Below, in pieces: positions 2,056 through 55,800 of a stretch of 60,451 bases of DNA (positions are counted from its first letter, which is position 1; each line of letters opens with the position of its first letter). The notes beneath the pieces were generated by a model. It was not told where the DNA came from. It did no database searches and was given only the letters and a program-made list of their open reading frames with translations. The position numbers and the translations under genes were made by a program. The stretch is from a virus: IMG/VR virus record IMGVR_UViG_3300043449_000416, positions 1-60,451 of that record; one strand, written 5' to 3'.

Positions 2056-2525
2056 GGTAGATTTTCCCTGTACTGTTCGAGGGTCTCATGGTGCGTAAAG
2101 AAGCCCCGGACTTCCATGCTAACCGACTGCATGTAGTCCCGCCCCTTACATATATAGATAACATATGCAATGATCTCTGCATACCAGTCGCGAAGGACGT
2201 AGGAGAACACTCGGTCGTTTGCCGAGCCCTTCTCCAGCTTGTTGGCATCGAGCCAAGCGTTGATCCCTGTCACGATGATTGGAATCAGCTGGTGCTTGTA
2301 CTTATCAAAGAACGGGTTGAGAGGCAGCTCGGTCAGAGCGACAAAAAGCGTGCGGGCAATGTCTGCGTCGGTGACGGGCTTGTCCTTGTCGATGAGGTCG
2401 TCGAAAACCTCGCAGATGTCGCCAAACTGACGGATGAACCAGATGGCGTTCATATCGCCGGTCCACTCTACGAGCTTAGCGTCGCGTAGCTTCCGCCACT
2501 CTTCGGTGTCAAACTCAGGAGTCAT
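2052..2525 (-). CDS. Hypothetical protein (157 aa)
   Basis: ORF with 4-nt start/stop overlaps to both neighbours in the late operon. Confidence 0.5.
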   Translation of the reverse strand: MTPEFDTEEWRKLRDAKLVEWTGDMNAIWFIRQFGDICEVFDDLIDKDKPVTDADIARTLFVALTELPLNPFFDKYKHQLIPIIVTGINAWLDANKLEKGSANDRVFSYVLRDWYAEIIAYVIYICKGRDYMQSVSMEVRGFFTHHETLEQYRENLP

Positions 2526-3598
2526 GCGGCCACCCGTTTACGCAGTTCAGCCGGTGCCTTTGGTCCGGCCCCGTTCACAGCGGATAAGAATCCACCCCCG
2601 AACTTCCTCTCAAGTGCATCAGTAGCATCTTTGCGAAGCACAAACTCGCCATCAGCTAGGAGCACATCTTGTTCCCCGTCAATCGTAGCAGGCACCTTGT
2701 CATCTACACCAGAACCGTCGCCGGGACCGCGGACCATGCCGTTTTCGCCGTTGGCAAAGCGCTCGCGGGTATCATCGAATTCGCCAGACTTCACGGAGTT
2801 TACCAGATCGCGCAGGGCAGACTTGCCGTACTTGGCCAAGAACTTACCGAGGGCAATTTCAGGCTGCGGATGCTGCCCCTTGATGGCAGCGATAGCCTCG
2901 ACGATTTCGGTCTTCTCGTTTGGCTTTTTGACGTCCCCGCCTTTGGCATAGGGGAGCGCGCCTGTATCTCGGTAGGCTAGAATGTCTTCGTATGAATACG
3001 GTCGTCCGATGCCATAATTAAACTCAGGATCGATGCCGGGACGATACCCCAGCGGAGGAGTTAGCTGGACGCGCGGAATAGGTTTCATCTCTATGTCGGC
3101 AGCGATGGGCTTGGCGGCGGTAGGTTTTATTGTTGGGGTTGGAGTAGCCAATGCACCTCCGATCTGTGACCCAATACCCTGCGCAGAGCTCATAAAGTTC
3201 ATACCGTTACGGATTCCACTGCCTAGTGCTCCACTGCCAAAGAACCCCGAATTAGCTGCAGGTTGCGGGGGCATAAGGGAGCTAATACCGCCCGCCGAGC
3301 TAAGCGGGGTGCCTGTCGTCATCGCATTTGCCCCGGTACCAATAGCGCTTTGCCCGGGCATCGGTTGCTGTAGTGCGCCACCCGCAGTGCTGCCCATAAG
3401 CCCGCCGAGAAGCTTGCCACCTAAGAAGGAGCCCAGTCCTGCCTTGAGTCCCGCACCGAGGTCTCGTTGCTCGATGGCTGTCCCAAGGCCTTGACCAACA
3501 GCCCCCGCAATCAGCGGAGTTAGTGAAGCAAGGCCCAGCGCGCTGCCAATGGCGGGGGCGAAGGCGGACCCGAGAAAGCCCAAAATCATAGGAAGCAT
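2522..3598 (-). CDS. Putative internal virion / ejection protein (Gly-rich, hydrophobic N-terminus)
   Basis: 358-aa ORF; N-terminal hydrophobic Gly/Ala-rich segment (MLPMILGFLGSAFAPAIGSALGLASL...), extended Gly-rich low-complexity region; sits in the structural arm. Confidence 0.45.
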   Translation of the reverse strand: MLPMILGFLGSAFAPAIGSALGLASLTPLIAGAVGQGLGTAIEQRDLGAGLKAGLGSFLGGKLLGGLMGSTAGGALQQPMPGQSAIGTGANAMTTGTPLSSAGGISSLMPPQPAANSGFFGSGALGSGIRNGMNFMSSAQGIGSQIGGALATPTPTIKPTAAKPIAADIEMKPIPRVQLTPPLGYRPGIDPEFNYGIGRPYSYEDILAYRDTGALPYAKGGDVKKPNEKTEIVEAIAAIKGQHPQPEIALGKFLAKYGKSALRDLVNSVKSGEFDDTRERFANGENGMVRGPGDGSGVDDKVPATIDGEQDVLLADGEFVLRKDATDALERKFGGGFLSAVNGAGPKAPAELRKRVAA

Positions 3599-3661: not shown

Positions 3662-4762
3662 TCATAGCTGTTGCTGCGTTACGGTTACGATTATGGCAGG
3701 CCCTGCCGGATGGAAGGCGGTTGCCGCGAAGGCGTCAAGGCTAACGTTCGTGTCATCAGCCGCCCACATAACTCGGACATATTGGTTGGCCTCTAACGAC
3801 ACATCGTATGTCGCGGAGAACGGAAAATAGGTACCGGTCCCAGTGAGACTGATAGCCCGCGTGGTATCCGGCAGATTTGTGCCGTTCTTCTCCAGCCAGA
3901 TGTACACGCTCTTCGAGCTGGCATTAGTGGATGCGAGCTGAGCAGAGATATCGACGTGGTAGTACCCCGCCTGTGACGCCACAATCCTAGAGGCTGGAGT
4001 GCCGAGCGTAACCCCGTTCGAGATTTCGGTAGCCGTATAGGTCACCGCAGTGGCCGTATTTATAGCTGACAGAGTTTGGTCGGTGCTTGAGATGAATGTG
4101 CCGTAATCCAACCCAATCGGTATGGTCGGCCTAACCATAATTTCTCCGACGGTGGAGCTTACGGTTAGAACTGCAGCGACAGAGACCACCACATCCGGGG
4201 CCGTCGGACGGACCTTGGTAAACCGCCCAGCCGTCGTTGCGGAGGCGTATAGGATATCCCCTGCGACCCAAGTCTGGCTTACTGTGGAGCCCGTGGTATT
4301 TAGACCTCGGACTTTTCCGTAGACTGTGACCGCGCCGACGGCCTGATCGACCATCTCAAAGGTGGTGACGCCGACGAAGTACAGCTCCGGGATAGAGCCG
4401 TTGGCAATGTAGGGAGAGACATTGATCTCGCCGTTTACCCCGGCAAAGCCGACAACGGAGCCGTTCGGGATGGTAGACCCCGTATTGTTCCGGCACCGCA
4501 TGAAGGTCTCAAAGCCGATCTGCTGAGTGACGTCGTTCAGGTGCGTAAGGTTGAACGTGTCCTCGGCGGCGTTGTATGACAACTCCCCAGCATCGATTTT
4601 TTCACCAGACGGGTTTAACGTGACTGTCGTGAAGATCGCATCGCCCGGGTTATTGACCTGCTGCACAAATACCGAGAACGCACGGATGAGCTGGGCCATG
4701 TATTGACGGTTGTAGTTCTCCGGCGGCGTTGGAAAGAAGGGTGCTGGTGCATTACTCGGCAT
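3662..4762 (-). CDS. Putative tail fibre / receptor-binding protein
   Basis: 366-aa ORF rich in Thr/Ser/Gly/Asn/Val, typical of fibre proteins; follows a large tail protein gene. Confidence 0.45.
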   Translation of the reverse strand: MPSNAPAPFFPTPPENYNRQYMAQLIRAFSVFVQQVNNPGDAIFTTVTLNPSGEKIDAGELSYNAAEDTFNLTHLNDVTQQIGFETFMRCRNNTGSTIPNGSVVGFAGVNGEINVSPYIANGSIPELYFVGVTTFEMVDQAVGAVTVYGKVRGLNTTGSTVSQTWVAGDILYASATTAGRFTKVRPTAPDVVVSVAAVLTVSSTVGEIMVRPTIPIGLDYGTFISSTDQTLSAINTATAVTYTATEISNGVTLGTPASRIVASQAGYYHVDISAQLASTNASSKSVYIWLEKNGTNLPDTTRAISLTGTGTYFPFSATYDVSLEANQYVRVMWAADDTNVSLDAFAATAFHPAGPAIIVTVTQQQL

Positions 4763-6624
4763 TACTTCCTCCCGTCCGTTCTGAGATCAAGCCTCGGATC
4801 ACCAAGCCGCCAAGCCGTATTTATCTGACTGGAATCAATACGCAGGGATATTGACCGCCCGCGTAGCCGTGTAAAAATCTGGTTGGTGAACTGTTCCACC
4901 GGAAGGCTTGAGGTCTTGGTGACTGGGTCCGCATCCGTCGCAAAGTAGGCCCCCCCGGGGAAGTTCCGGGCCTTTAGAGTGATAGTTACCGTGGGCGCGT
5001 CGTTCGTTGAGTTTCGGAATGTGAGATCGGGGATGAGCCTAGTGGCGAACATAAAGTTGTCACCGTCCCCCATGTCTATCACACTCGACTCGACATAAGC
5101 AGTTATGGGGGCCGGAGGGTTCACGCTTCCATCATTCAGGCCGTTCTCTTGGTAGTACACATACCCATCCGGCGAGATAGCCAGCGGGTACTGTAGGACG
5201 TTACGATCCAACCAAGCCGTGCGAGAGAGCGTTCCGTAGTACCATACGCGCTGTTCATAGTTATAGACGACGTACTTATCGTTCTCGCTGCTGGCAGCAG
5301 ATGGATAGAACCACCACACCTCAGAAAATGAACTGCAATGACCTGCGTAAATCTTAAGCTGTTGCGAAACGTTCAGATCAGAGAAAACGTATTCCTTCAC
5401 GTCGCATGGAATCTGCACCGCGGCACCGTCATAGATATAGAACTCGTTGCTACCCATCCAGTAAACAGAGTCTCCAACGGCTACGGAAGCATTGGGCGCG
5501 GCAATAGATATAGAGGATGAGACTTCTTGAATTCCGAATGTGTAGGGGGGCCCGATATATTGCATTGCGTGAATGGACACATCGGTGAAGACGAGAATCT
5601 GTTGCTTGGTCTGCACAGCTGATATGATCTCAGACCCGGTACCAATACGCAGTTCACCCGCAGTTGTTGTCGGCAGGGTGCGCCATTCAGCAAGGTTCTC
5701 TTGGTCAGAGAAGCGAATCGTCAGTGGGTCCTGAACACCGGGAGTGCCCTCTGGGTCACAACCAAACGCAATAACGTGCCGATCACGCTCCGATATCATA
5801 ACTAGGCGGGCAACCGTCGGCACTGCCTGAGCGCCGGGGAGCGTCTGCAGTTCAACTCCGCGTGTTGAGAGGCCCGCGCTCTTGTCCCAGTAATAAATAC
5901 GTCCGTTCTGCAGACAGAAGATCAAGTCCTCTCCAAAACTATCCTGCGACCAGATAGGAAGCTGTGCGCTAGGTAGTGTTGTACGCGTCCCTGAACCCCA
6001 AGTCCCGCGAGACCAAGTGCCAGAGCCCCAACCACTGCCTGCGATAGCCGTATCTAGGGCGACGTTGATCTGGTAAGCACCAACGACAGACGCACCGCCG
6101 GTTCCGGTATCCGAGGAATTAGCCGTAGCCGTTGCGGTTATCTGGTATACACCCCCGCTTACGACGTTAGTAACCTGATACTCTCGGTTTAGTACAGAAG
6201 CCGTGATGTTACCGCCGAGGCTAACCGCGCCAGAGAAGGTCACAAAGTCTCCCGTGAGAGCGCCGTGCAGGGTGTCATTCACGTTGATGATATTGGAACC
6301 CGTGGTAGCGGAAAACGTTACGCCGCCGGGCGCTGTCGTGGCGCGAAGGGGGGTGATATCGTTTACCGATCCACCGCTCAGGATGTAGTACTTTAGGTTG
6401 GTGCCACACCCGGTGTACACAGAGCCGTCGAGCGCAGTCCATGTAAGCAGAGACCGCCCAGTGCCAAGCAGCGGATCACGCGTATAGCGGGTCCAGCCCC
6501 CGATAGTTTCAGGTTTACCTGCCCGAAAACGCACAAGGTTCCCATCCCACCATCCGCCCTCATTGGCATAGGCAGTGGTCTCACGGTTAATACCGGGCCG
6601 GAATACGAGTTTTGTGAGTGCCAT
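4762..6624 (-). CDS. Putative tail protein (about 620 aa; likely start at internal Met MALTKLVFRPG)
   Basis: ORF 4762..6720 in the track; the upstream extension overlaps the spanin candidates, so the internal ATG near 6624 is the more plausible start. Gly/Thr/Ser-rich beta-type composition. Confidence 0.45.
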   Translation of the reverse strand: MALTKLVFRPGINRETTAYANEGGWWDGNLVRFRAGKPETIGGWTRYTRDPLLGTGRSLLTWTALDGSVYTGCGTNLKYYILSGGSVNDITPLRATTAPGGVTFSATTGSNIINVNDTLHGALTGDFVTFSGAVSLGGNITASVLNREYQVTNVVSGGVYQITATATANSSDTGTGGASVVGAYQINVALDTAIAGSGWGSGTWSRGTWGSGTRTTLPSAQLPIWSQDSFGEDLIFCLQNGRIYYWDKSAGLSTRGVELQTLPGAQAVPTVARLVMISERDRHVIAFGCDPEGTPGVQDPLTIRFSDQENLAEWRTLPTTTAGELRIGTGSEIISAVQTKQQILVFTDVSIHAMQYIGPPYTFGIQEVSSSISIAAPNASVAVGDSVYWMGSNEFYIYDGAAVQIPCDVKEYVFSDLNVSQQLKIYAGHCSSFSEVWWFYPSAASSENDKYVVYNYEQRVWYYGTLSRTAWLDRNVLQYPLAISPDGYVYYQENGLNDGSVNPPAPITAYVESSVIDMGDGDNFMFATRLIPDLTFRNSTNDAPTVTITLKARNFPGGAYFATDADPVTKTSSLPVEQFTNQIFTRLRGRSISLRIDSSQINTAWRLGDPRLDLRTDGRK

Positions 6625-6691
6625 AGCAATCTCCTGTCCGTAAGATACTACACCACTCGAGAAGTTTAGCCAACATCTCGATCTGGCGAGT

Positions 6692-6919
6692 TTAGGCTCG
6701 CCTGCCGCAGCCCGCGTCAAGTAGTCGGATCAGGTACGCACCGGAAACAGTCGAAAGCGGCCCCCCGTCGTCAGCCAAAGCCCGTGCATGTTCGCTGCTC
6801 GCCGTTTCGGTACCTACGCAGACCGCATCAGTGTTTGCCGCGCTCACGCAACCAATCGTGGGCAGCGTCAGCATCAGACATGCGACCCACTTCGTCCATC
6901 CGTCTCCGTGTTTCAGCAT
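6692..6919 (-). CDS. Candidate o-spanin (lipoprotein-like), overlapping the i-spanin candidate in another frame
   Basis: Alternative-frame ORF with n-region / hydrophobic stretch / Cys (MLKHGDGWTKWVACLMLTLPTIGC...) immediately downstream of the endolysin. The lipobox is imperfect. Confidence 0.25.
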   Translation of the reverse strand: MLKHGDGWTKWVACLMLTLPTIGCVSAANTDAVCVGTETASSEHARALADDGGPLSTVSGAYLIRLLDAGCGRRA

Positions 6920-7064
6920 AATCTTCAAACTCCTCTTGTTTGGCGTCAGCCTGAGCCGCTTTTCTGCCACCAAGCCAGCTAGCTGCTAGCGCGGCAAGGA
7001 CAAGACCAATACCTATAGCCCAGAGTTTTAGACGCACAAAGATCAACGGTCGCCCTCTGCCCAC
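6828..7064 (-). CDS. Candidate i-spanin / small membrane protein with charged C-terminal tail
   Basis: 78 aa; N-terminal TM helix (LWAIGIGLVLAALAASWL) followed by a charged helical tail; adjacent to the endolysin. Confidence 0.35.
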   Translation of the reverse strand: MGRGRPLIFVRLKLWAIGIGLVLAALAASWLGGRKAAQADAKQEEFEDYAETRRRMDEVGRMSDADAAHDWLRERGKH

Positions 7065-7708
7065 TTTTTGATGCGCTCCCGCATAACCCAGAGCGCGGCA
7101 AGGACGACAATCCCGGCAAATACCAATGCGACAATCTGAGCCGTGCCATCTAACGCGCCGACGGCGGCAACACCAGCGCCCGCACCCGAAGCAATCTGTA
7201 TGGTGGAGGCCTGCACGGTGGTGGATTGCGCGACACTTGTGCGCCCCTCAAACTCACCGCCCATAGGGGTCAGAAACAACTTGCGTTCAGCATCGCGGCG
7301 ACGGGTTAAGCCTTTTAGAACCTTGCCGCCAGCCTTGTTCCAAAGCAGAATCGCTTTTGCCGCGCCTTCTTTGTCGCCCGCGTTGAACGAACGAAGGGCG
7401 GATGACTTCTTGAATGCACCGGGACCGATGTTGTAGGCCAGCGACACAAACGCCCCAAATTCGTTTTCGTTAGCTGGCGCGGTGATCGACGGGATGATCT
7501 GAGCGGCAAACTTGGCTAGCGCAGCGTGCAGATATTTTTCCGCGTCGCTCCGGCTGATGGTCATACCTTCACTGGGCGTGATGCCAACGCCCGCCGCTGC
7601 CGTAGTGCCGTAGCCAATGGTCCAAATGCCAGCGGGGCACTTATAGGCCTTCGCACTAAAGCCCTCAAATTCCTTGACCAGATCAACGGTCGCTTGGTTA
7701 ATGTTCAT
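7043..7708 (-). CDS. Endolysin, glycoside hydrolase family 24 (phage lysozyme) with C-terminal hydrophobic segment
   Basis: N-terminal motif VDLVKEFEGFSAKAYKCPAGIWTIGYGTT is the classic GH24 catalytic-Glu / TIGYG signature; C-terminus has Gly/Ala-rich hydrophobic helices (VALVFAGIVVLAALWVM). Confidence 0.8.
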   Translation of the reverse strand: MNINQATVDLVKEFEGFSAKAYKCPAGIWTIGYGTTAAAGVGITPSEGMTISRSDAEKYLHAALAKFAAQIIPSITAPANENEFGAFVSLAYNIGPGAFKKSSALRSFNAGDKEGAAKAILLWNKAGGKVLKGLTRRRDAERKLFLTPMGGEFEGRTSVAQSTTVQASTIQIASGAGAGVAAVGALDGTAQIVALVFAGIVVLAALWVMRERIKKWAEGDR

Positions 7709-7938
7709 TTGCTCCCCACCTTCGCAATGAGTGACTTTATGTCATCGCGGATTTCGCCCAGCATCCTGTTGGTCTCCTCGCGAGACTGCCGGGTCATTTC
7801 CAAATCCTCTTTCCGCTGATACCAAAGCCGTTTGATCTCTCTACCATTTTCAACGCTGCGCGCTTCGAGGCGAATAAGCCAAACAATGGTCGCCACGAAT
7901 GCAGCGGCAACCGGCCAGAAGGTGCGTATAAATTCCAT
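7705..7938 (-). CDS. Putative holin / small membrane protein
   Basis: 77 aa; N-terminal TM segment (FWPVAAAFVATIVWLI) then a charged C-terminal region; immediately upstream of the endolysin. Confidence 0.4.
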   Translation of the reverse strand: MEFIRTFWPVAAAFVATIVWLIRLEARSVENGREIKRLWYQRKEDLEMTRQSREETNRMLGEIRDDIKSLIAKVGSK

Positions 7939-7960
7939 CTCTATGTTACCTTCCTCAGAC

Positions 7961-8302
7961 TTATTCTACGGGGTAGGGGTAGCGCGCTTTGATCTCAGCG
8001 ATCTTCGCGAGCCATTCGGTCTCGGTAGCCTCACCACGCTGCGACATAAAGAAGAGCGGGTCGGCTTCGAGGCTGTAAGCGGCCCGGCGGTTTGCCTCTT
8101 GCTGCTCACGGGTTGGTAGAGGTGGTGAAACAGCTATCCAGCTGCCGCCCGACCACTCATGACCCCGCCCCGGCATAAGAGGAACCTCTACCGTACCTTC
8201 CGGGTACGTTGCTAGAACCTCAACGCTTGGCTCCGAAAGTGTTTGCCAATATCCACGATCAGGGTGAAAAAATCCGCGCTCCATTATCTCAGCTCCGACC
8301 AA
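7961..8302 (-). CDS. Hypothetical protein (113 aa)
   Basis: ORF between tail fibre and lysis genes. Confidence 0.4.
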   Translation of the reverse strand: MVGAEIMERGFFHPDRGYWQTLSEPSVEVLATYPEGTVEVPLMPGRGHEWSGGSWIAVSPPLPTREQQEANRRAAYSLEADPLFFMSQRGEATETEWLAKIAEIKARYPYPVE

Positions 8303-9654
8303 TTTAGGATAGTTGCGGTCCCATTAACGCGATAATAGTGGTTGATGGGGACAATGATGTAAGTATAAGGCCAATAAGATGAGTAGGAAGTCCCTATGTC
8401 AACCCAAGTAGTGTTGTTGGTGGATACCTGAACTGACCGATCAGTCGAATTGCTGAGACGAATGGCAAGTTGGATCGGGCGGCTCGTGGTGTTTTGGTAG
8501 CTCGTGCTAACAGCGCGCGATGCCTCTACATCTTGCCAAGTCTGGCCAGAGCCAACTGCGTTTGTAGCGGTGGTGGCTGTCGCTGCGTTTCCACTAATGC
8601 TGATGCCCCAAGTGCCAGTCGCACCGCTGCCCGCGTTAGAGGGTTTCCCATTGAGCTGGGTCTGGATCGAAGATGTTACCCCATCAACGAAGTTCAGTTC
8701 CGTCACAGTAGCCGTTAGGCCTGTAATCGATGAGGCGCTAGTCGCAGTCGTGGCTGTCGTAGCAGTCGTAGCCGTCGTAGCATTGCCCGTCAGGGCCCCT
8801 ACAAACGTGCCCGCAGTGACGGTGTTCGTCGACGGGTTATAGGTGAAGGTCTGGGTACTATCTTGCAGCAGCCCGTAGTAGCCCGTGTTCGATTGGGTAG
8901 TGTCCGCAAATGGGATCTTAAAGGCTAAAGATCTTGTGTCTGACGTCACCTTAACGGTGTCCGCCTGCGGCGACGTTGAGCTTACCGTGGTAAAGCTAAG
9001 AGTGCCGGTACCGTTGGTGCTCAGAACCTGACCAACTGTTCCATCTGCCGATGGAAAGTTAATGACATCGAGAAACGCCTGCAGGTTGGCATCATATGCC
9101 AGCACGTTCGTCCCAATGACGAGGCCTAAATTAGTACGAGCATCTACAGCGCTAGAGGCTCCGGTCCCGCCGTCGGCAACAGCCAGATCGGTGATACCCG
9201 TAATAGTACCCCCGGTGATCTTGACAGAGTTCATGGCAAAGTTGTCAGTCAGGTTTACAACACCTGCTGCGCCCCCGCCGCCATTAGAGTAAATCACCCC
9301 GCTGTCACCATTGGCGATGGTCACTGTTGTGCCGGAACCCTGCGTGAAGATGACCGACTGACCAGACAGGTTGTAGACGTAATAGATCTTCTGGGCGTAG
9401 TTAGGCGCGATGGTGATCGTATGGGTGGCGCTCGGCGTGCCACCAAGAACCAGAGCCTTGTACTGGCCGCTAGATAAAGTGCCGTCGGATGTCGTGAGCG
9501 TTGACGCGGTACCACTCAGAGGTAGCAAAACCGTGCCATTGATGGCCCGATCAAGGATGTTCATGTTATCGTTGACAACTTCACCCCAGACACCATCGAG
9601 TTCGCCGTCGGCTGGGAGTTCAACCCCGAGGTTATTAGTGTATGTACTGGGCAT
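8284..9654 (-). CDS. Putative tail fibre / tailspike protein
   Basis: 456 aa, Thr/Ser/Gly/Asn-rich; contains the motif ...GGTITGITDLAVADGGTGASSAVDARTNLG that I recognise from phage fibre proteins. Confidence 0.5.
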   Translation of the reverse strand: MPSTYTNNLGVELPADGELDGVWGEVVNDNMNILDRAINGTVLLPLSGTASTLTTSDGTLSSGQYKALVLGGTPSATHTITIAPNYAQKIYYVYNLSGQSVIFTQGSGTTVTIANGDSGVIYSNGGGGAAGVVNLTDNFAMNSVKITGGTITGITDLAVADGGTGASSAVDARTNLGLVIGTNVLAYDANLQAFLDVINFPSADGTVGQVLSTNGTGTLSFTTVSSTSPQADTVKVTSDTRSLAFKIPFADTTQSNTGYYGLLQDSTQTFTYNPSTNTVTAGTFVGALTGNATTATTATTATTATSASSITGLTATVTELNFVDGVTSSIQTQLNGKPSNAGSGATGTWGISISGNAATATTATNAVGSGQTWQDVEASRAVSTSYQNTTSRPIQLAIRLSNSTDRSVQVSTNNTTWVDIGTSYSSYWPYTYIIVPINHYYRVNGTATILNWSELR

Positions 9655-24201: not shown

Positions 24202-26688
24202 CTAGTAGTAATCAACTTTTCTTCTGTATGGCAGCTCTTCATCCAGCTCATCTGTCGGCAGGCGGATGAACCCCCCTTGGCGGAACCGCATCAGGGCCAT
24301 TATTGTCGTGTCGCAGTTGTGGACCAGCACACCGTTAGCGTAGTAGCAGTGAGTGTCAGCTACCGTCAGGTTGTATACTGGCTTTTTCTCTTCTCCTACG
24401 TTTATACTGTCTACTTGCGCACGTGTTGCCGCAAAGTTCGGCCCGGCCAGAAGACGATAGAAACTGCGTACTGCACTCCTTACAGGTACGGATAACCGGG
24501 TTTTCAGCCTGCTCTTTGAGCTTTTTCTCTCTAGCCTCACGGGCGGCCCCACCAAGTTTAAGGTACTTAGCTGTGCGATCTCTGTGCCAAGCTCTACCTT
24601 CCTCTGAACGGTGCCACTCGCTCGCCTTGCCACGAACCCTGTTAAGCAGGGCAAGTTGCTCGGGGCTTCTCGCTCTAATGCTGCGCTCTTCGGAGTGGCG
24701 TCTGCAGTGCTCTTCGCGAGATACGCACTCAAGGTTAGTGACGCCGTTGTTATCCCAATTTCCGTCCTTGTGGTGAACCTCCCAGCCGTCTGGAATAGGC
24801 CCATTGTGGAACTCCCACACAGCGCGGTGCAAGTTGAACCCTCCGGCTCGCTGAAAATACTTCCGAAGAGACGCTCTCGGAGAGTTCGGATAGCGGTTGT
24901 AAGTGTAGCCGTTGAACACAACAGACTCCGTGTGAACTTCTGGTTTAGTCGGCCACGGCATTTGCGCCCCCATTGCTTGGTCACCTTTACTGTATCAGTC
25001 ACAGTAATAGTGTCAAGACGCTTCCACCCGCACGTTGTGGCGATTGGGTGGTTCCCGGTGCCTTCCAGAGTGTGGCCTCCAGCGCGCAGAATAAATGTAT
25101 TTCGCACCCCTGTGCAACCTGCGGCCTGTACCACTTTCGCCCCCGCTGGCGTTTTAACGACGTCCCCGATCTTTATTGTTTCAATAGGTTGCTCTATTCC
25201 ATCAGCCATCAGAACTTGCGTTCCGGCTACAAAACAGTGGTCGTCGTTTTCAGCGAACGGGAATCCTGCAACTTCCTCGACCAGCTCCTCTGCCCACCGT
25301 TTAGGCGGCACCCAGACCAGCCCCGAGGAGATGATATCAGACACAGAGTTCAGACGCGCCATCTTGCTATTCGGGTTGTTTACCGAGCCCCTGACAGGGG
25401 TGTACTCCTGCACCATGAGCCCCGAGCGGCGCATCTCCTGATACAACGGCGTCCCCGAACTCTTTTTCTCGACGATGAACACGTCGGGTTCCCACTGCTG
25501 ATACTCCTCCAGAGCCAACGCTTTGAGCTCTGGAAACTCCATGCGCCGCTTGATGGCATTGAGCAGGATGATCTGGTGCATGTTCTCCTCGTCATTGAAG
25601 AACACTCCCCACGTTGTCAGAGACGTGAAGTCAGCCCGGTTGTGGGCTTCTGCAGCGGCGTCGAGAGACATGATGATATACTCTACAGCCGGTGGGTCGT
25701 CGTCTGGCCACAGCCGCCACCAATCTCTCTTGATTATGGCAGCTTCTTCGCCCGTCGGATTCTGCTGATACTGCGCGTTCCACTGGAACACCGGCATGGA
25801 GGCCTTGGTCCGCAGCAGTGCTTGTAGATCAAAAAACTCAGGCCAGAGGGCTCTTTGAATTATATTTTCTTCACCAGTGACGTTGTCTTTCTGGACTACG
25901 TCTAAAATAGCCGGAAACTCCACCACCTCATATTGGTCGGAGTTCTCGTTGTTGGCCATATCTTGAATAAGGCGTCCTGTTAGATCTTTTTTATGCCATC
26001 TTGTATGGACCACGGCCACGCGCCCCCCGGGCATCAGACGCGTCCGGGCCCCGAAGGCGAACCATTCGTAAGCTTTGTCGAATGCCGTGAAGTTTCCGTT
26101 CAAGATATCCTGCTCGGAGTGCGGGTCGTCGACGAGCAGCAGGTCAGCGCCGCGGCCCGCGAGGGCCGATCCCACGCCCGTGGCGTAAAACTCGCATCCT
26201 GTGGTCGTGTTCCAGCGCCCAGCCGACTTGCTGTCAGAGGACAGCGCGAGGTTCGGGAAGACCTGCTGGTAGGGCTCAGAGTCGATGATATTCCGCACCT
26301 TCCGACCGAAATCGACGGCTAGGTCCGTCGTATGCGAGACCAACATGACCTTTTTCCCGGGGTTTCGACCGATGAACCATGCAGGATAGTAGGTTGAGAC
26401 GAGCTGAGACTTGCCGTGGCGGGGTGGGATGTTGACGCAGACCCTGTCTTTGTCCCCCCGCTCGATGTCCATGAGCTCATCCGCTAGAATTCTATGGTGT
26501 CGGCCCACCTTATAGGTACGGTCCATATACTTACAGAAGGCAATCAGGTCATCCTTGGCACCCTGCAGCGTGGCGCGCTTGTCCAACTCCTCGAGCATTT
26601 TCTCGATCTCGAGCAGTTCCTGCTCGTCGAGCATATCCACGCTCTTGAGGAGCGTTTCGAGCTCTGCTCGATTGAAGTCGGAGCTCAT
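24202..26688 (-). CDS. terL: Terminase large subunit, interrupted by an intein
   Basis: Walker A (IPPRHGKSQ), Walker B (ADLLLVDDPH) and a C-terminal nuclease region; intein blocks CFVAGTQVLMADG... (A), TGNHP (B) and ...YYANGVLVHN/CDTTI (F/G). Confidence 0.85.
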   Translation of the reverse strand: MSSDFNRAELETLLKSVDMLDEQELLEIEKMLEELDKRATLQGAKDDLIAFCKYMDRTYKVGRHHRILADELMDIERGDKDRVCVNIPPRHGKSQLVSTYYPAWFIGRNPGKKVMLVSHTTDLAVDFGRKVRNIIDSEPYQQVFPNLALSSDSKSAGRWNTTTGCEFYATGVGSALAGRGADLLLVDDPHSEQDILNGNFTAFDKAYEWFAFGARTRLMPGGRVAVVHTRWHKKDLTGRLIQDMANNENSDQYEVVEFPAILDVVQKDNVTGEENIIQRALWPEFFDLQALLRTKASMPVFQWNAQYQQNPTGEEAAIIKRDWWRLWPDDDPPAVEYIIMSLDAAAEAHNRADFTSLTTWGVFFNDEENMHQIILLNAIKRRMEFPELKALALEEYQQWEPDVFIVEKKSSGTPLYQEMRRSGLMVQEYTPVRGSVNNPNSKMARLNSVSDIISSGLVWVPPKRWAEELVEEVAGFPFAENDDHCFVAGTQVLMADGIEQPIETIKIGDVVKTPAGAKVVQAAGCTGVRNTFILRAGGHTLEGTGNHPIATTCGWKRLDTITVTDTVKVTKQWGRKCRGRLNQKFTRSLLCSTATLTTAIRTLRERLFGSIFSEPEGSTCTALCGSSTMGLFQTAGRFTTRTEIGITTASLTLSAYLAKSTADATPKSAALEREAPSNLPCLTGFVARRASGTVQRKVELGTEIAQLSTLNLVGPPVRLERKSSKSRLKTRLSVPVRSAVRSFYRLLAGPNFAATRAQVDSINVGEEKKPVYNLTVADTHCYYANGVLVHNCDTTIMALMRFRQGGFIRLPTDELDEELPYRRKVDYY
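24316..25236 (-). other. Intein within terL (aa 485-791 of the precursor)
   Basis: N-terminal Cys after ...FAENDDH, C-terminal HN followed by +1 Cys; boundaries computed from the ORF. Confidence 0.75.
24356..24973 (-). CDS. HNH endonuclease ORF nested inside the terL intein, in a different reading frame
   Basis: HRAVWEFHNGPIPDGWEVHHKDGNWDNNGVTNLECVSREEHCRRH is an unambiguous HNH motif; the ORF exactly fills the gap between the intein N- and C-terminal splicing blocks and has a GGTGA-like RBS upstream of its ATG. Confidence 0.7.
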   Translation of the reverse strand: MGAQMPWPTKPEVHTESVVFNGYTYNRYPNSPRASLRKYFQRAGGFNLHRAVWEFHNGPIPDGWEVHHKDGNWDNNGVTNLECVSREEHCRRHSEERSIRARSPEQLALLNRVRGKASEWHRSEEGRAWHRDRTAKYLKLGGAAREAREKKLKEQAENPVIRTCKECSTQFLSSSGRAELCGNTCASRQYKRRRREKASIQPDGS

Positions 26689-52895: not shown

Positions 52896-55800
52896 TTAGA
52901 AGAGCTGGAACCCTTGGTTGTACATCCCCTCCAGATCGATCAGGGCTTCCCGTACTATCGGGTTGATCGACACACCACTCGACATTTCCTTAGACGTGCG
53001 TTGGTGGCTCTTAAGCGAGTCTTTGAGGAACTCCCCATCAATAACTGCTTCGGGAAACCGGTCTTTGATCTCCGCATTGAACGCACGGATATCAGCCATA
53101 GCTTCTTGTGCGCCCTCGATGTCGCCCTGACGTAGTGCGATGTAGTAGAGTTTTGACAGTTCCGAGCGCTTCTTGGAGACCTCGTTGCTGATCCTAACCT
53201 TGAGTTGGTTAATGTCCTGCTGCAGCGTGGCCTTCGTTGGCGTAAAGCCAAGCATCTGTCCTAGCAAATCACTGGAACCAAGATCGCCAGTGATGACGTC
53301 CTTACGCCGCGTCTCGATGGAAGCGCCATCGGCCAGATAACGCCCCGCTTTGATGAAGTTACGGACTGCCGCTGGTACCATGTTCTCAATGCCACGCACC
53401 ATGTCGCCTTCCCCGCCAGTCATGGCCGTATAGAACTCCGAGATACCACGACCGAACTGCGTTGCAGTAGACCATGCAGGGCCTCCGATAGCCGCCACAA
53501 GGGTTTCTTCTGCCGACGCATCGGTGTTGTAGCGGTTTTCACGGAGCAAGAGCCCGGTAAGCCCGATACGGGACGAGATGTCGAACCCAGATATGTCCGA
53601 CAGGAAGCCTTTATAAATTCCTTCACCGAGATAGCGACGTGTCAGCATGTCTGCATCTTCCTCGTCATCGCCGAGGAACGCGTTTGCTACCGTGGACACA
53701 AGCCCATAGAGGGGCACACCTGCGATACCGGCAAAGGCAAAAGACGATAGCTGCAGACCAACAAGCTGCTTAAAAGCTACCCGCCGATCTTCTGGTGTGA
53801 AGTCAGGATCATTACTACCTAGCGTCAACTGCTTTATAAGCTTCATCTGCATGTAAAACAGCGAAAGCCCGAAGTTTTTGTACATGAGAGCTACGCGCCC
53901 GATACCCTTCTGGGCCCAGCGCGGTGCGGTAGCGAGAGTAGAACCACCACCCGTTTCAGTTGCCTGATATACAGCGCGCTCGGCAGCGCGGGTGCGTCGT
54001 TGGTCTTCGGTGAGCCCACGCTCAGCTTCGGTTGGCTTGTTCCGCAGACGGGCGAGTTCGAGATTATAGGCCGCGACGAGAGTAACCTGACGGTTGGCGC
54101 GTTCAACTTGGTGAAACAAGGCACCGGATATGGCAGAGAAACGATCACCGAAGCTCCGCGCGCGTCCAACATCCTCGGCACCGATGCTATCGTAATAAAT
54201 CGAGCGGTTCAGCTGCCCGTTCTTAGACGCAACATCCACAAGAGGGGCGAGTTCCTGCAGCATCGGGCGAAGTTCCGGTGCGATGTCGTCGCGCAGGACG
54301 TACTCGTTATTACTATTCAAGACGAAGTAGTTGTCTATGGACGGCATAGCCCGAACCTTGGTTGTCTTCTGCCCTTCAAACTGCGCAGGGAGTTCGATCT
54401 CACGGCTAAGGCCACTGTTCAGGAATAGCTTATAGGCACTGCCGATTGCAGCGGCAGATGATCGGCTGCCATAACGCCCAGCTAAGTACGGGTAGAGCAC
54501 AACGGGGACTGACGACAAGTTCACCAGCGCCGAGGACACGTTCAAGCCAATAGTAAACGTAAAGGCCCCACGGTTAACTGTCTGCACCATGCGCTCGAGC
54601 ATATCGGCAGGGGGGTTAGTGGCAAAGTTGGCACGGGCAACGAGCTCCTCGACTACCGCTACCTTGTTCTGGTCATTGGTATTTCTTGCCTGATCCTGAA
54701 TGGCATCCGACACGGCTCTGATCTTGTTGCTGTAGGCGTAGCGGACACCCTGTCGTCCAAGGCTGTAACCCTTAACGCGAAGTGCCTCCAACGAGTCCTC
54801 CATGTAGCCACGCGTATTCTTACGCCGCTGCAAAGACTTAGCAAACGATGTTTCCGGTAGCGCATCTACAAAGAGTTTGGTGATCTCCTGCTGAATGCTC
54901 GAGGCTGTAGCTGCATCCACCCCGGTGTTGGCGAGATTGGACCGGATAATAGACAGCGTGTCACGCACAAATAGAGAGTCCGGTGTACGCCCCTGCCGCA
55001 CCACGTCGAGCGTGGAGTAGTAGTTAAAGATTGGTTTCCCATCTGGGCCCTTGGTAACTTCCGACATAGCCTCGAGTTCTTTGGCGGCGCGGTCACGCGC
55101 ACGGGGGCTTTCGTAAGCCTCCTTTACAGGCTCAGTGGTGTTGGTCTCGGGGTCAAAGGCGGAATATTCTAACCAGTAGTCGCCCTTACGAGCCAGCGGG
55201 AAGTACGGCTCGATGCGGTTCATGTCGAAGAACTTTGTGTAGATGCTCTGCTTTACCTCAGCGGCTAGCGTGGGGTTGGATGAGAGAATAAAGTCAATTT
55301 TGCCCGAGAGAGCCTCGCGCAGGCGCTCGTACTGCTTGCGGTACAGCTGGCGCATGTTGTTATAGAGATCATGCCCATCCCTACCAATAGCGGCCCAGTC
55401 CTTCTGCAGTGCGTCATACATACGCATTTTGTCGGAGTCGGCACCGTACTTCTTTAGGGCCTTCTCGCGGGTCAGAGACGGATCGACTTGGTTGACTGTG
55501 GAGCGCGTGACGACGCGGTCGAACAGCGGCTTGAGGTTGGGGTTGTTCTTCACCCACTTCTGGGCGATCTGCAGAACGCCATCTACCTCTTGGTCAGACT
55601 TGACAGCAGCTGCATCCATCTGCTGGACGCCGTCCTGTAGATCATAGGCACCGTCAATCTTGTAGTGTGCGGCCACGTCGGCCAAAGGCTGCATCCCCAT
55701 AAACCCGAGAACGGTGCGCTTCGCGCCCCAAGATGCGCCAGACAAAACACTAGAGGCGTCGTCGCCGAACTGTTGAGCAAACTCCTTGGTACGGCCCGGG

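What the first reader, a model, noticed from the sequence alone, without database searches (positions are those of the whole stretch)
7043..7708. GH24 endolysin with C-terminal (not N-terminal) hydrophobic helices, and overlapping spanin candidates
The lysozyme catalytic motif is at the N-terminus, while the C-terminal 50 residues are Gly/Ala-rich hydrophobic helices ending in a basic tail. This is the opposite topology to classic N-terminal signal-anchor-release endolysins. Downstream, two overlapping ORFs in different frames (6828..7064 and 6692..6919) look like an i-spanin/o-spanin pair, although the lipobox is imperfect.
Basis: partly seen in the sequence, partly recalled or inferred. Interest (0 to 1): 0.45.

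Follow-up and report, generated by a model that had tools for sequence, protein, structure and literature searches.

The report
Phage endolysin with portable C-terminal membrane anchor
A phage cell-wall-digesting enzyme carries its membrane-spanning segment at the tail end instead of the front, a rare and poorly understood layout already described in one cultured phage, and the same 66-residue tail piece turns out to be attached to many unrelated wall-digesting enzymes in aquatic phages.

Summary
Window 7043..7708 (- strand) encodes a 221-aa GH24 lysozyme (Pfam PF00959, E 9e-42). It has the catalytic motif E15-x8-C24-x5-T30, no N-terminal hydrophobic segment, and a conserved C-terminal module (residues 156-221).

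The module consists of:
- an uncharged Ala/Gly-rich helix (168-186);
- a tight turn (LDGTAQ);
- a strongly hydrophobic helix (190-209);
- a basic tail (RERIKKWAEGDR).

The gene sits in a four-gene lysis cassette with overlapping start and stop codons: a 77-aa single-TM holin candidate, the endolysin, a 72-aa i-spanin (start corrected to TTG 7046), and an overlapped o-spanin. The o-spanin lipobox is TIGC here and consensus-type (LISC, VTGC, VSGC, LTGC, VTSC) in eight relatives.

The architecture is already published for LysAP of Acidovorax phage AP1 (2022), the best full-length match among cultured phages, and analogously for M4Lys and Enc34. It is therefore not categorically new.

Beyond the finding: the module is a distinct, unannotated sequence family, not detectably homologous to the LysAP or Enc34 tails. 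It always sits at the extreme C-terminus. It is fused to at least nine peptidoglycan-hydrolase domain families, including in cultured Roseobacter phages CRP-403, CRP-406 and CRP-811.

How the enzyme reaches the wall remains unresolved. I favour a cytoplasm-side hairpin tether released by the holin.

The parts
7705..7938 (-). 77-aa holin candidate: N-terminal TM helix (residues ~4-24) followed by a charged helical C-terminal domain. Its stop overlaps the endolysin start (ATGA).
   Evidence: ORF. KD19 maximum 1.76 at residues 4-22. No curated family match. Homologues sit in the same position in L088 (96% identity), L086 (70%) and the cultured Roseobacter phage CRP-811 (68%). The holin role is inferred from position and shape only.
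7043..7708 (-). Endolysin, 221 aa: GH24 catalytic domain, linker and C-terminal membrane module.
7271..7708 (-). GH24 (Phage_lysozyme) catalytic domain, residues 1-146, with E15, C24 and T30.
   Evidence: PF00959 at 9e-42. Closest solved structure 6et6_A at E 4e-38. AF2 pLDDT is 83-92 for residues 1-120 and drops below 50 at 125-130.
7244..7270 (-). Variable linker, residues 147-155.
   Evidence: Relatives carry insertions of up to 12 residues here. pLDDT is below 50.
7046..7243 (-). Conserved C-terminal module, residues 156-221. It comprises R-x-S-x-x-Q-S-x-T-x-Q-A, an Ala/Gly-rich helix, an LDGTAQ turn, a TM helix, and W-[IV]-M-R-E-R-[LI]-x-K-W-A-x-G-x-R.
   Evidence: phmmer with residues 153-221 found 77 representative clusters, and the module is at the extreme C-terminus in nearly all (the two exceptions, P0187 and P0192, are weak partial matches). 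It is fused to 9 different peptidoglycan-hydrolase Pfam families.
7151..7207 (-). Proximal helix, residues 168-186 (STIQIASGAGAGVAAVGAL): uncharged, weakly hydrophobic, SAR-like.
   Evidence: Hessa sum +5.8, KD 1.29, hydrophobic moment 0.14. It is uncharged in 92% of the family. This lies between the pinholin S68 TMD1 (+6.5) and the R21 SAR domain (+0.78).
7082..7141 (-). Distal TM helix, residues 190-209 (AQIVALVFAGIVVLAALWVM): stable anchor.
   Evidence: Hessa sum -1.0 and KD 2.55, more hydrophobic than the R21 SAR domain or S68 TMD2. AF2 helix 188-217 with pLDDT 77-85.
7046..7081 (-). Basic tail, residues 210-221 (RERIKKWAEGDR).
   Evidence: R212 is 99% and G219 is 100% conserved. The family averages 4.5 K/R in the last 12 residues.
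6828..7046 (-). i-spanin, 72 aa: TTG start overlapping the endolysin stop, N-terminal TM helix, and a charged periplasmic domain of about 45 aa.
   Evidence: PHROG 1026 'Rz-like spanin' at 5.7e-6. KD19 of 2.05. Ten homologues or positional counterparts aligned (two at only 21-28% identity); the metagenomic relatives begin at the endolysin stop and the CRP-phage genes overlap it by 4-10 nt.
6692..6919 (-). o-spanin, 75 aa: lipoprotein signal with lipobox T-I-G-C24 (6848..6859). It overlaps the i-spanin gene by 92 nt in another frame and extends 136 nt beyond it ('overlapped' architecture).
   Evidence: The alignment of 9 loci has invariant C24, C34 and C71. Relatives have lipoboxes LISC, VTGC, VSGC, LTGC and VTSC. 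An AGGAG motif lies 10 nt upstream of the ATG.

Best explanation
This is the lysis cassette of a roughly 60-kb tailed phage. It has four genes with overlapping start and stop codons, which suggests translational coupling: holin candidate, endolysin, i-spanin and o-spanin.

The endolysin is a GH24 muramidase with no N-terminal export signal. It is held at the cytoplasmic membrane by a conserved 66-residue C-terminal two-helix module.

Shown here:
- the domain composition;
- the conservation and hydrophobic character of the module;
- its portability among peptidoglycan hydrolases;
- the spanin pair.

Inferred mechanism:
1. The module inserts after translation as a helical hairpin from the cytoplasmic side. 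The Ala/Gly-rich helix packs against the strongly hydrophobic helix. Both basic flanks (near-invariant R156, and R210/R212 in the tail) stay inside, and the short acidic or neutral LDGT turn faces the periplasm.
2. The folded enzyme is thereby parked on the inner face of the membrane.
3. When the upstream single-TM protein permeabilises the membrane, the tethered enzyme reaches the murein through its flexible linker.
4. The spanin pair then disrupts the outer membrane.

On this reading, the holin-independent lysis reported when LysAP or M4Lys is over-expressed is membrane damage caused by the anchor itself.
For: - GH24 identity and catalytic motif.
- No N-terminal hydrophobic segment.
- Module conserved in more than 120 close clusters and 77 distant representative clusters, at the extreme C-terminus in nearly all (two weak partial matches excepted).
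- Module fused to Amidase_2, CHAP, Phage_lysozyme, Peptidase_M15_2, M15_3 and M15_4, GH108, Hydrolase_2 and GH19. The catalytic class is therefore irrelevant and the module supplies a generic endolysin-handling function.
- Distal helix is more hydrophobic than established SAR domains (Hessa -1.0 against +0.78 for R21). The proximal helix is uncharged, non-amphipathic and in the SAR range (+5.8).
- The turn between the helices is only 3-5 residues. Both flanks carry net positive charge (+1.5 and +2.6 on average). AF2 predicts helix-break-helix.
- The cassette order is conserved in different genomic neighbourhoods and in cultured roseophages.
- Published data on analogous proteins. For LysAP, deleting the TMD abolishes lysis and leaves the protein cytosolic, and the E15A mutant is inactive (PMC8879335). 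For M4Lys, the TMD is essential and lysis is Sec-independent (PMC7143992); a bacteriostatic effect of the TMD alone is reported second-hand in the Enc34 paper (PMC8943055). The Enc34 authors note that no known pathway exports an N-terminal domain by means of a C-terminal signal (PMC8943055).
Against: - The topology is not measured. Simple scales rate the proximal helix as not autonomously membrane-inserting (Hessa +5.8), so a single-span orientation remains possible.
- The LysAP authors propose the opposite orientation (enzyme in the periplasm, Sec-dependent), although only from a delay of lysis at 10 mM azide.
- A stably anchored enzyme needs its linker to reach the murein through a lesion, which is plausible but untested.
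- In L082 no TM protein lies next to the endolysin, so a separate holin is not always adjacent.
- The holin role of the 77-aa protein rests on position and shape only. It has no family match.
- The module is not demonstrably homologous to the LysAP or M4Lys tails, so transferring their experimental results to this protein is by analogy.
Confidence: 0.5

Rival explanations
1. C-terminal signal-anchor model, as proposed for LysAP. The distal helix spans the membrane N-out/C-in, so the catalytic domain is exported to the periplasm and kept inactive by the tether. The upstream small TM protein acts as a pinholin, and depolarisation activates or releases the enzyme.
For: - The basic tail fits C-in.
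- LysAP alone lyses E. coli, needs its TMD and catalytic Glu, and lysis is delayed by 10 mM azide.
- The long flexible or acidic linkers in prophage relatives L026, L063 and L068 would suit an enzyme that must reach from the membrane to the murein.
- The proximal helix scores too low to be an autonomous TM helix.
Against: - The TM helix is the last part of the protein to be synthesised, so about 190 residues of an already folded lysozyme would have to cross afterwards. No known pathway does this (PMC8943055).
- M4Lys lysis is Sec-independent.
- The distal helix is more hydrophobic than any calibrated SAR domain, so release on depolarisation is unlikely.
- Near-invariant R156 and the uncharged Ala/Gly helix have no obvious role in this model.
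Confidence: 0.27
2. Built-in holin model. The 66-residue module is itself a pinholin-like two-helix lesion former fused in cis. The endolysin therefore opens its own way to the wall, and the neighbouring small TM proteins are only timers (antiholin- or releasin-like).
For: - The module has the same size and layout as pinholin S21-68: a weak Gly/Ala/Ser-rich helix, a short loop, a hydrophobic helix and a K/R/E-rich tail.
- LysAP and M4Lys lyse cells without a holin and the full-length Enc34 enzyme is toxic to cells. The M4Lys TMD alone is bacteriostatic as cited in PMC8943055, while the M4Lys abstract says the TMD alone does not cause lysis.
- The accompanying small TM proteins are very diverse. 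There are two N-TM families, a 2-TM protein in CRP-406, C-TM proteins in CRP-403, L002 and L007, and none next to L082.
Against: - There is no sequence or profile similarity to S68 (hhalign probability 0.8%) or to any holin family in Pfam or PHROGs.
- The module was not found free-standing. Of the short hits, one checked lies at a contig edge and one is a frameshifted gene; several others begin within a catalytic domain.
- In S21-68 the weak helix must leave the membrane to activate the pinholin. A 155-residue N-terminal domain should block that.
- Holin-independent lysis has been shown only under strong over-expression.
Confidence: 0.18
3. The C-terminal segment is a soluble element rather than a transmembrane anchor: a cell-wall-binding domain, or an amphipathic helix that permeabilises the outer membrane.
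For: Some endolysins of Gram-negative hosts carry C-terminal amphipathic helices (cited in PMC8943055).
Against: - The hydrophobic moment is only 0.12-0.14.
- There are 20 consecutive uncharged hydrophobic residues with KD 2.55.
- No binding-domain family matches.
- Charges occur only in the flanks.
Confidence: 0.03
4. Artefact: a mis-assembled or frameshifted fusion of a lysozyme gene with a separate small membrane-protein gene.
For: None, apart from one relative (L098) in which a sequencing frameshift splits the gene.
Against: The same 221-233-aa architecture occurs in more than 120 independent clusters from JGI, ENA, Logan and NCBI and in complete genomes of cultured phages.
Confidence: 0.01

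Closest known systems
LysAP, endolysin of Acidovorax oryzae phage AP1 (OM049504; PMC8879335, 2022), described as a 'C-terminal SAR endolysin' with holin HolAP
   Same: - GH24 catalytic domain at the N-terminus with the E15-x8-D/C24-x5-T30 motif.
- No signal peptide.
- A single C-terminal TM helix followed by a basic tail.
- Similar size (227 aa against 221 aa).
- Best full-length hit among 50,697 phage records: 36.9% identity over 99% of the query.
- Preceded by a small one-TM holin-type gene.
   Different: - The C-terminal regions are not detectably homologous on their own: BLASTP finds no alignment and hhalign gives 1.2% probability.
- LysAP has a spacer of about 12-20 residues between the Ala/Gly-rich stretch and the TM helix.
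- LysAP has Asp where this protein has Cys24.
- HolAP is a 111-aa member of the Phage_holin_2_3 family, whereas the 77-aa protein here matches no holin family.
- No annotated spanins follow LysAP.
M4Lys (Salmonella phage BSPM4), Enc34 ORF39 and Siskin endolysins (PMC7143992, PMC8943055, PMC6498227)
   Same: - N-terminal catalytic domain plus a C-terminal two-helix membrane domain.
- Located between a one-TM holin-like gene and an overlapped i-/o-spanin pair.
- The TMD is required for toxicity or lysis.
- The export route is unexplained.
   Different: - The catalytic domain is the unrelated PHA02564 family.
- There is no sequence similarity in the membrane domain.
- These endolysins were reported as confined to Chivirus-like enterobacterial phages. 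The module here spans many catalytic classes and aquatic phages.
SAR endolysins (R21, P1 Lyz) with pinholin S21-68
   Same: - GH24 catalytic domain of the same E-8-D/C-5-T type. R21 (3hde/3hdf) is among the PDB hits at E ~3e-19.
- A weakly hydrophobic Gly/Ala-rich helix is present.
- The 66-aa module mimics the layout of S21-68.
   Different: - The hydrophobic element is C-terminal, not N-terminal.
- It includes a second helix more hydrophobic than the calibrated SAR domains.
- There is no homology to S68.
Endolysins of cultured Roseobacter phages CRP-403 (gp39, 'hypothetical'), CRP-406 ('lysozyme'), CRP-811 ('amidase'), CRP-118 and CRP-804
   Same: - They carry the same C-terminal module (50-53% identity over 93-99% of the 69-aa query; E from 6e-10 to 9e-8, with CRP-804 only at 6e-2).
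- In the three loci examined (CRP-403, CRP-406, CRP-811) a ~72-aa TM gene follows, overlapping the endolysin stop. Clear i-/o-spanin homologues were seen in CRP-406 and CRP-403; the CRP-811 counterpart is only 28% identical and its downstream lipoprotein-like ORF was not aligned.
- CRP-811 also has a homologue of the 77-aa upstream protein.
   Different: - Their catalytic domains are Amidase_2-like or CHAP-like by sequence inspection rather than GH24.
- Their records do not annotate the membrane module.
Overlapped two-component spanins (phage P2 LysB/LysC type; Kongari et al. 2018, PMC6139136)
   Same: - An N-terminal-TM i-spanin.
- An o-spanin lipoprotein gene that starts inside the i-spanin gene in another frame and extends beyond it.
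- Position directly after the endolysin.
   Different: - Both are very short (72 aa and 75 aa).
- The i-spanin has no periplasmic Cys.
- The lipobox TIGC deviates at position -3 from the consensus [LVI][ASTVI][GAS]C.

Membership tests
GH24 / Pfam PF00959 Phage_lysozyme | Profile match above the curated cut-off | tested here: met
   142.8 bits against a cut-off of 22.3, residues 12-141. PDB homologue 6et6_A at E 4e-38.
GH24 / Pfam PF00959 Phage_lysozyme | Catalytic motif E-x8-[D/C]-x5-T (motif definition from my own knowledge of the SAR-endolysin literature) | tested here: met
   E15, C24 and T30 are in the sequence. E15 and T30 are invariant and C24 is at least 90% conserved in 42 relatives. 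LysAP has D24.
GH24 / Pfam PF00959 Phage_lysozyme | Muramidase activity on peptidoglycan | not testable with these tools
   Requires a turbidity-reduction assay with the 1-155 fragment.
SAR (signal-anchor-release) endolysins | N-terminal weakly hydrophobic signal-anchor preceding the catalytic domain | tested here: not met
   No hydrophobic window lies in residues 1-177, and the catalytic Glu is residue 15.
SAR (signal-anchor-release) endolysins | Membrane helix of marginal hydrophobicity that can leave the bilayer | tested here: inconclusive
   The proximal helix scores Hessa +5.8, in the SAR range (R21 +0.78, S68 TMD1 +6.5). The distal helix scores -1.0, more hydrophobic than either.
SAR (signal-anchor-release) endolysins | Sec-dependent export and release upon membrane depolarisation | not testable with these tools
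   Needs SecA depletion and energy-poison experiments.
LysAP-type C-terminal-TMD GH24 endolysin (phage AP1) | GH24 domain at the N-terminus, no signal peptide, one predicted TM helix near the C-terminus followed by cationic residues | tested here: met
LysAP-type C-terminal-TMD GH24 endolysin (phage AP1) | C-terminal region homologous to that of LysAP | tested here: not met
   BLASTP finds no alignment at E<=100. hhalign of the module profile against the LysAP tail gives 1.2% probability.
LysAP-type C-terminal-TMD GH24 endolysin (phage AP1) | Partner holin of the Phage_holin_2_3 family (HolAP) | tested here: not met
   The upstream 77-aa protein has no Pfam holin match. Its best hit is DUF2852 at E 0.051, below the cut-off.
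LysAP-type C-terminal-TMD GH24 endolysin (phage AP1) | TMD required for membrane localisation and lysis | not testable with these tools
   Requires expression of full-length protein against the 156-221 deletion.
Enc34/M4Lys-type endolysins | PHA02564 catalytic domain | tested here: not met
   The catalytic domain is PF00959. There is no similarity to Enc34 ORF39.
Enc34/M4Lys-type endolysins | C-terminal two-helix membrane domain | tested here: met
   AF2 predicts helices 168-184 and 188-217. This holds at the level of prediction only, and there is no sequence homology.
Two-component spanin, overlapped architecture | i-spanin: N-terminal TM helix plus a charged periplasmic domain, encoded next to the endolysin | tested here: met
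   KD19 of 2.05 at residues 7-26 of the 78-aa reading. PHROG 1026 'Rz-like spanin' at 5.7e-6. Conserved in 10 loci.
Two-component spanin, overlapped architecture | o-spanin: lipoprotein signal with a lipobox Cys | tested here: met
   The lipobox is T-I-G-C24, and only position -3 falls outside the consensus [LVI][ASTVI][GAS]C. The Cys is invariant in 9 loci, whose lipoboxes are LISC, VTGC, VSGC, LTGC and VTSC. Residue +2 is Val, not Asp, which is compatible with outer-membrane sorting (the sorting rule is from my own knowledge). LipoP and SignalP were not available.
Two-component spanin, overlapped architecture | o-spanin gene starts inside the i-spanin gene in another frame and extends past its stop | tested here: met
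   The overlap is 6828..6919 (92 nt) and the o-spanin extends to 6692.
Two-component spanin, overlapped architecture | Outer-membrane disruption; complementation of lambda Rz/Rz1 | not testable with these tools
   Requires genetic complementation.
Pinholin (S21-68 type), considered for the C-terminal module | Small free-standing protein with a SAR-like TMD1, a hydrophobic TMD2 and a basic tail | tested here: not met
   The layout and size match, but the module is always fused to a hydrolase. There is no profile similarity to S68 or to holin families.

The most novel reading that the evidence does not exclude
The 66-residue C-terminal module is a portable, self-sufficient device that brings any peptidoglycan hydrolase to the murein without an N-terminal signal. 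It might do so as a pinholin-like hairpin that opens the membrane in cis, or by an unrecognised post-translational route for exporting an N-terminal domain. Either would be a third general route of endolysin delivery, alongside holin-released cytoplasmic enzymes and N-terminal SAR or signal-peptide enzymes. It appears widespread in phages that are probably of aquatic Alphaproteobacteria.
Probability: 0.2. Interest if true: 0.8.

Novelty: new variant of a known kind. Interest (0 to 1): 0.5.

Why it matters
Endolysins with a C-terminal membrane domain are a recognised puzzle. The published examples lyse cells only when the tail is present, yet no known pathway moves an N-terminal domain across the membrane by means of a C-terminal signal (PMC8943055). 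Those examples were regarded as rare or confined to particular clades.

This window shows a well-conserved member of that class. Following it up shows that one short, unannotated module is grafted onto at least nine catalytic families, and that it travels with the same spanin pair in abundant uncultured aquatic phages and in cultured roseophages.

That turns a curiosity into a general, testable module with a defined motif: R-x-S-x-x-Q-S-x-T, an Ala/Gly-rich helix, LDGTAQ, a TM helix, then W-I-M-R-E-R-L-x-K-W-A-x-G-D-R. It gives annotators a signature for recognising such endolysins. It is also relevant to engineering self-delivering lysins.

Tried and rejected
- A megablast of window 1-25000 against 50,697 phage records found nothing, so no close cultured relative exists.
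- Pfam and PHROGs scans of the isolated module at E<=10 gave only noise: 8xMP at 0.1, and a 'peptidase' PHROG at 0.014 that probably reflects the same tail on another enzyme.
- Homology of the module to the LysAP tail, the Enc34 tail and pinholin S68 was tested and not found.
- I suspected that the short M-start hits from the module search were free-standing holin-like proteins. Of the two I could check, one lies at a contig edge (L097) and the other is a frameshifted CHAP-type gene (L098), so the idea was dropped.
- The promoter and terminator scan of 6400..8400 found nothing above shuffled expectation. There are no tRNAs in the window.
- L002, whose endolysin is 87% identical, lacks the lipobox Cys in the overlapping frame and has a 163-aa C-terminal-TM gene inserted after the endolysin. 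The o-spanin arrangement is therefore not universal.
- DeepTMHMM, SignalP and LipoP were not available. I substituted Kyte-Doolittle, Hessa and Eisenberg scales, calibrated on R21 and S68 retrieved from phage 434.
- The R21 sequence I recalled from memory was verified as 100% identical to a database record before use.
Full report
**1. What is in the sequence**

On the minus strand, four small genes lie between a tail-fibre-like gene (8284..9654) and a virion structural gene (4762..6720; PHROG 3287).
- 7705..7938 encodes a 77-aa protein with one N-terminal hydrophobic helix and a charged helical remainder.
- 7043..7708 is the 221-aa protein of the finding.
- 6828..7046 encodes a 72-aa protein with an N-terminal TM helix.
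- 6692..6919 encodes a 75-aa protein in another frame.

The first stop overlaps the endolysin start (ATGA). The endolysin stop overlaps the next start (cgTTGAtc).

The window as a whole is a phage genome. It encodes a portal, a large terminase, a DNA-ejection protein, a primase/helicase and a 2105-aa DarB-like protein. It has no near relative among cultured phages. Its terminase is 41-44% identical to those of Pelagibacter phages HTVC027P and HTVC023P.

**2. The endolysin**

Residues 12-141 match Pfam Phage_lysozyme at 142.8 bits (E 9e-42) and PHROG 7. The closest solved structure by sequence is 6et6_A (E 4e-38). The SAR endolysin R21 (3hde) is also among the hits.

The motif E15-x8-C24-x5-T30 is present. 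E15 and T30 are invariant, and C24 is at least 90% conserved in 42 relatives. There is no N-terminal hydrophobic stretch.

After a linker of variable length (147-155; relatives carry insertions of up to 12 residues) comes a conserved module, residues 156-221. AlphaFold2 models the catalytic domain confidently (pLDDT 83-92), the linker poorly, and then two helices at 168-184 and 188-217.

On simple scales, calibrated with proteins retrieved from phage 434:

| Segment | Hessa sum | KD | Other |
|---|---|---|---|
| Proximal helix, STIQIASGAGAGVAAVGAL | +5.8 | 1.29 | moment 0.14; uncharged in 92% of family members |
| Distal helix, AQIVALVFAGIVVLAALWVM | -1.0 | 2.55 | |
| R21 SAR domain | +0.78 | 2.11 | |
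| Pinholin S68 TMD1 | +6.5 | 0.59 | |
| Pinholin S68 TMD2 | +1.0 | 1.72 | |

The proximal helix is therefore SAR-like, and the distal helix is a stable anchor. The tail RERIKKWAEGDR is basic. Across the family the last 12 residues hold 4.5 K/R on average, and the N-flank of the module is also net positive.

**3. Conservation and spread**

More than 120 clusters (clustered at 90% identity) from JGI, ENA, Logan and NCBI share 65-100% identity over the full length. Invariant residues extend through the module: R156, S162, L186, G188, A190, Q191, R210, R212, W216 and G219.

Among cultured phages, only 3 of 2,644 records with a GH24 match cover at least 80% of the query. The best is Acidovorax phage AP1 'lysozyme R' (36.9% identity, 99% coverage).

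A phmmer search with the 69 C-terminal residues alone, against 1.84 billion representatives, returned 77 proteins at E<=1e-3. In nearly all of them the match ends at or within four residues of the C-terminus (the two exceptions, P0187 and P0192, are weak partial matches).

The N-terminal domains of those proteins differ. Among the 48 proteins scanned, Pfam finds (examples):

| Pfam family | Proteins |
|---|---|
| Amidase_2 | 14 |
| CHAP | 8 |
| Phage_lysozyme | 6 |
| Peptidase_M15_4 | 4 |
| Peptidase_M15_3 | 2 |
| Peptidase_M15_2 | 2 |
| Glyco_hydro_108 with PG_binding_3 | 2 |
| Hydrolase_2 | 1 |
| Glyco_hydro_19 | 1 |

Several short hits begin within a catalytic domain. Of two that looked free-standing, one sits at a contig edge and one is a frameshifted gene.

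In the cultured-phage collection the module occurs only in five Roseobacter phages:
- CRP-403, with a CHAP-like enzyme by sequence inspection, annotated 'hypothetical';
- CRP-406 and CRP-811, with Amidase_2-like enzymes by sequence inspection;
- CRP-118 and CRP-804.

Alphaproteobacterial prophages carry GH24 enzymes with a C-terminal TM helix, among them Anderseniella and Azospirillum. The Anderseniella tail is related to the module (hhalign 94.5%, E 8e-8). Parvularculaceae and Caulobacterales prophages have a version with an acidic linker of more than 100 residues.

The module matches nothing in Pfam or PHROGs.

**4. The rest of the cassette**

*i-spanin.* The 72-aa protein matches PHROG 1026 'Rz-like spanin' (5.7e-6). 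It aligns with counterparts in nine other loci, two of them (L082, CRP-811) at only 21-28% identity. In the metagenomic relatives the gene begins at the endolysin stop with TTG, GTG or ATG; in the CRP phages it overlaps the stop by 4-10 nt. I therefore move the start from 7064 to 7046.

*o-spanin.* The 75-aa overlapped ORF has a lipoprotein-type signal ending in T-I-G-C24. The published consensus is [LVI][ASTVI][GAS]C, with validated exceptions (PMC6139136). Eight relatives, including CRP-403 and CRP-406, carry LISC, VTGC, VSGC, LTGC or VTSC. C24, C34 and C71 are invariant. The overlap with the i-spanin gene is 92 nt, which is the P2-type 'overlapped' architecture.

*Holin candidate.* The upstream 77-aa protein has homologues in L088, L086 and phage CRP-811. 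Other relatives carry an unrelated N-TM protein of the same size there. CRP-406 has a two-TM protein, CRP-403 and L002 have a C-terminal-TM protein, and L082 has none. Its holin role is inferred from position and shape only.

**5. Comparison with the literature**

The architecture of a GH24 domain plus a C-terminal TMD was described experimentally for LysAP of phage AP1 (PMC8879335).
- LysAP alone lyses E. coli.
- Deleting the TMD abolishes lysis and leaves the protein cytosolic.
- The E15A mutant is inactive.
- The holin HolAP enhances lysis.
- A delay of lysis at 10 mM azide led the authors to propose a Sec-dependent 'C-terminal SAR endolysin-pinholin' model.

M4Lys of BSPM4 and ORF39 of Enc34 have an unrelated catalytic domain with a two-helix C-terminal TMD. 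M4Lys lysis is TMD-dependent but Sec- and holin-independent. The Enc34 authors stress that no known mechanism exports an N-terminal domain by means of a C-terminal signal (PMC7143992, PMC8943055).

The module of the present family is not detectably homologous to those tails. My full-text searches found no description of it, or of its distribution across catalytic classes. That is absence within the library searched, not proof that it is unpublished.

**6. Mechanism**

Shown: a lysozyme with no N-terminal signal carries a conserved, portable, strongly hydrophobic C-terminal element, and it sits in a holin-candidate/endolysin/spanin cassette.

Inferred, and favoured at about 0.5: the two helices form a hairpin inserted from the cytoplasmic side. 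Four observations fit this:
- both flanks are basic;
- the turn is only 3-5 residues and is acidic or neutral;
- the proximal helix is uncharged and rich in small residues, as in helices that pack inside membranes;
- the TM helix is the last part of the protein to be made, so insertion must follow synthesis and folding of the enzyme.

The enzyme would then wait on the inner face of the membrane until the holin-type protein opens it. The published holin-independent lysis would be a consequence of over-producing a membrane-perturbing anchor.

Rivals:
- The LysAP model, with a periplasmic enzyme on an N-out/C-in anchor (about 0.27). It fits the basic tail and the long linkers of some relatives. 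It needs an unknown export route, and release on depolarisation is hard to reconcile with so hydrophobic an anchor.
- A built-in pinholin-like lesion former (about 0.18). The layout resembles S21-68, but there is no homology, and the large N-terminal domain should block the activating flip.
- A soluble or amphipathic helix, or an assembly artefact. The data exclude both.

**7. Verdict**

The finding is real and its interpretation is correct. It is a new sequence variant of an already described but mechanistically unresolved kind of endolysin. The added value is that its anchor is a widespread, domain-shuffled module, with culturable model phages available.

Noticed in passing
window 52896..59213 (- strand): A 2105-aa ORF whose C-terminal third matches PHROG 10089 'DarB-like antirestriction' (1e-51) and other giant-protein PHROGs. 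It may be an injected anti-restriction or helicase-methylase protein.
   Followed up: no
window 24202..26688 (- strand): The large terminase is 828 aa, but relatives align only to residues ~14-514. The remaining ~300 C-terminal residues are an unexplained extension, with only a weak PHROG 35162 hit at residues 756-796.
   Followed up: no
window 7637..7639 (codon for C24 of the endolysin): The position of the catalytic Asp in the GH24 triad is Cys in at least 90% of this family and Asp in a minority (P0056, P0092, LysAP). It is the only Cys in the protein, so it cannot take part in SAR-type disulfide caging.
   Followed up: partly
L002 1857..2348 and 2349..2592: In the MAG contig whose endolysin is 87% identical, a 163-aa protein with a coiled-coil region and a C-terminal TM helix is inserted between the endolysin and the i-spanin. 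The frame overlapping the i-spanin lacks the lipobox Cys (LTLPASGS...). The inserted protein resembles CRP-403 gp38 in layout.
   Followed up: partly
L026 2968..3897, L063 2914..4032, L068 2959..4008: Prophage GH24 lysozymes of Parvularculaceae, Caulobacterales and an unclassified Pseudomonadota MAG carry a low-complexity acidic linker of over 100 residues between the catalytic domain and a C-terminal TM helix ending in ...DDWRQYRR. This is a long-tether version of the same architecture.
   Followed up: no
L007 3691..4185: In the Anderseniella prophage, the C-terminal-TM lysozyme is followed by a 164-aa multi-TM protein. It is preceded by a 71-aa protein with a coiled-coil region and a C-terminal TM helix, which is the reverse layout of the window's 77-aa protein. 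The multi-TM protein looks like a GTA-type 3-TM holin from memory; I did not test this.
   Followed up: no
alignment A3 (one member): One protein that carries the C-terminal module matched Pfam PEP-utilizers (E 1.5e-15), which is not a peptidoglycan hydrolase. It may be a chimeric contig or a chance match of the tail.
   Followed up: no
window 7961..8302 (- strand): A 113-aa ORF lies just upstream of the cassette. Its C-terminal ~45 residues match three PHROGs of unknown function (E 2e-9 to 5e-8). From its position after the fibre-like gene 8284..9654 it may be a tail-fibre assembly factor.
   Followed up: no
L082 2331..2501: In this relative, the gene directly upstream of the endolysin encodes a 56-aa protein with no TM helix, and no holin-like gene is adjacent. 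Either the holin lies elsewhere or the endolysin works without one.
   Followed up: no
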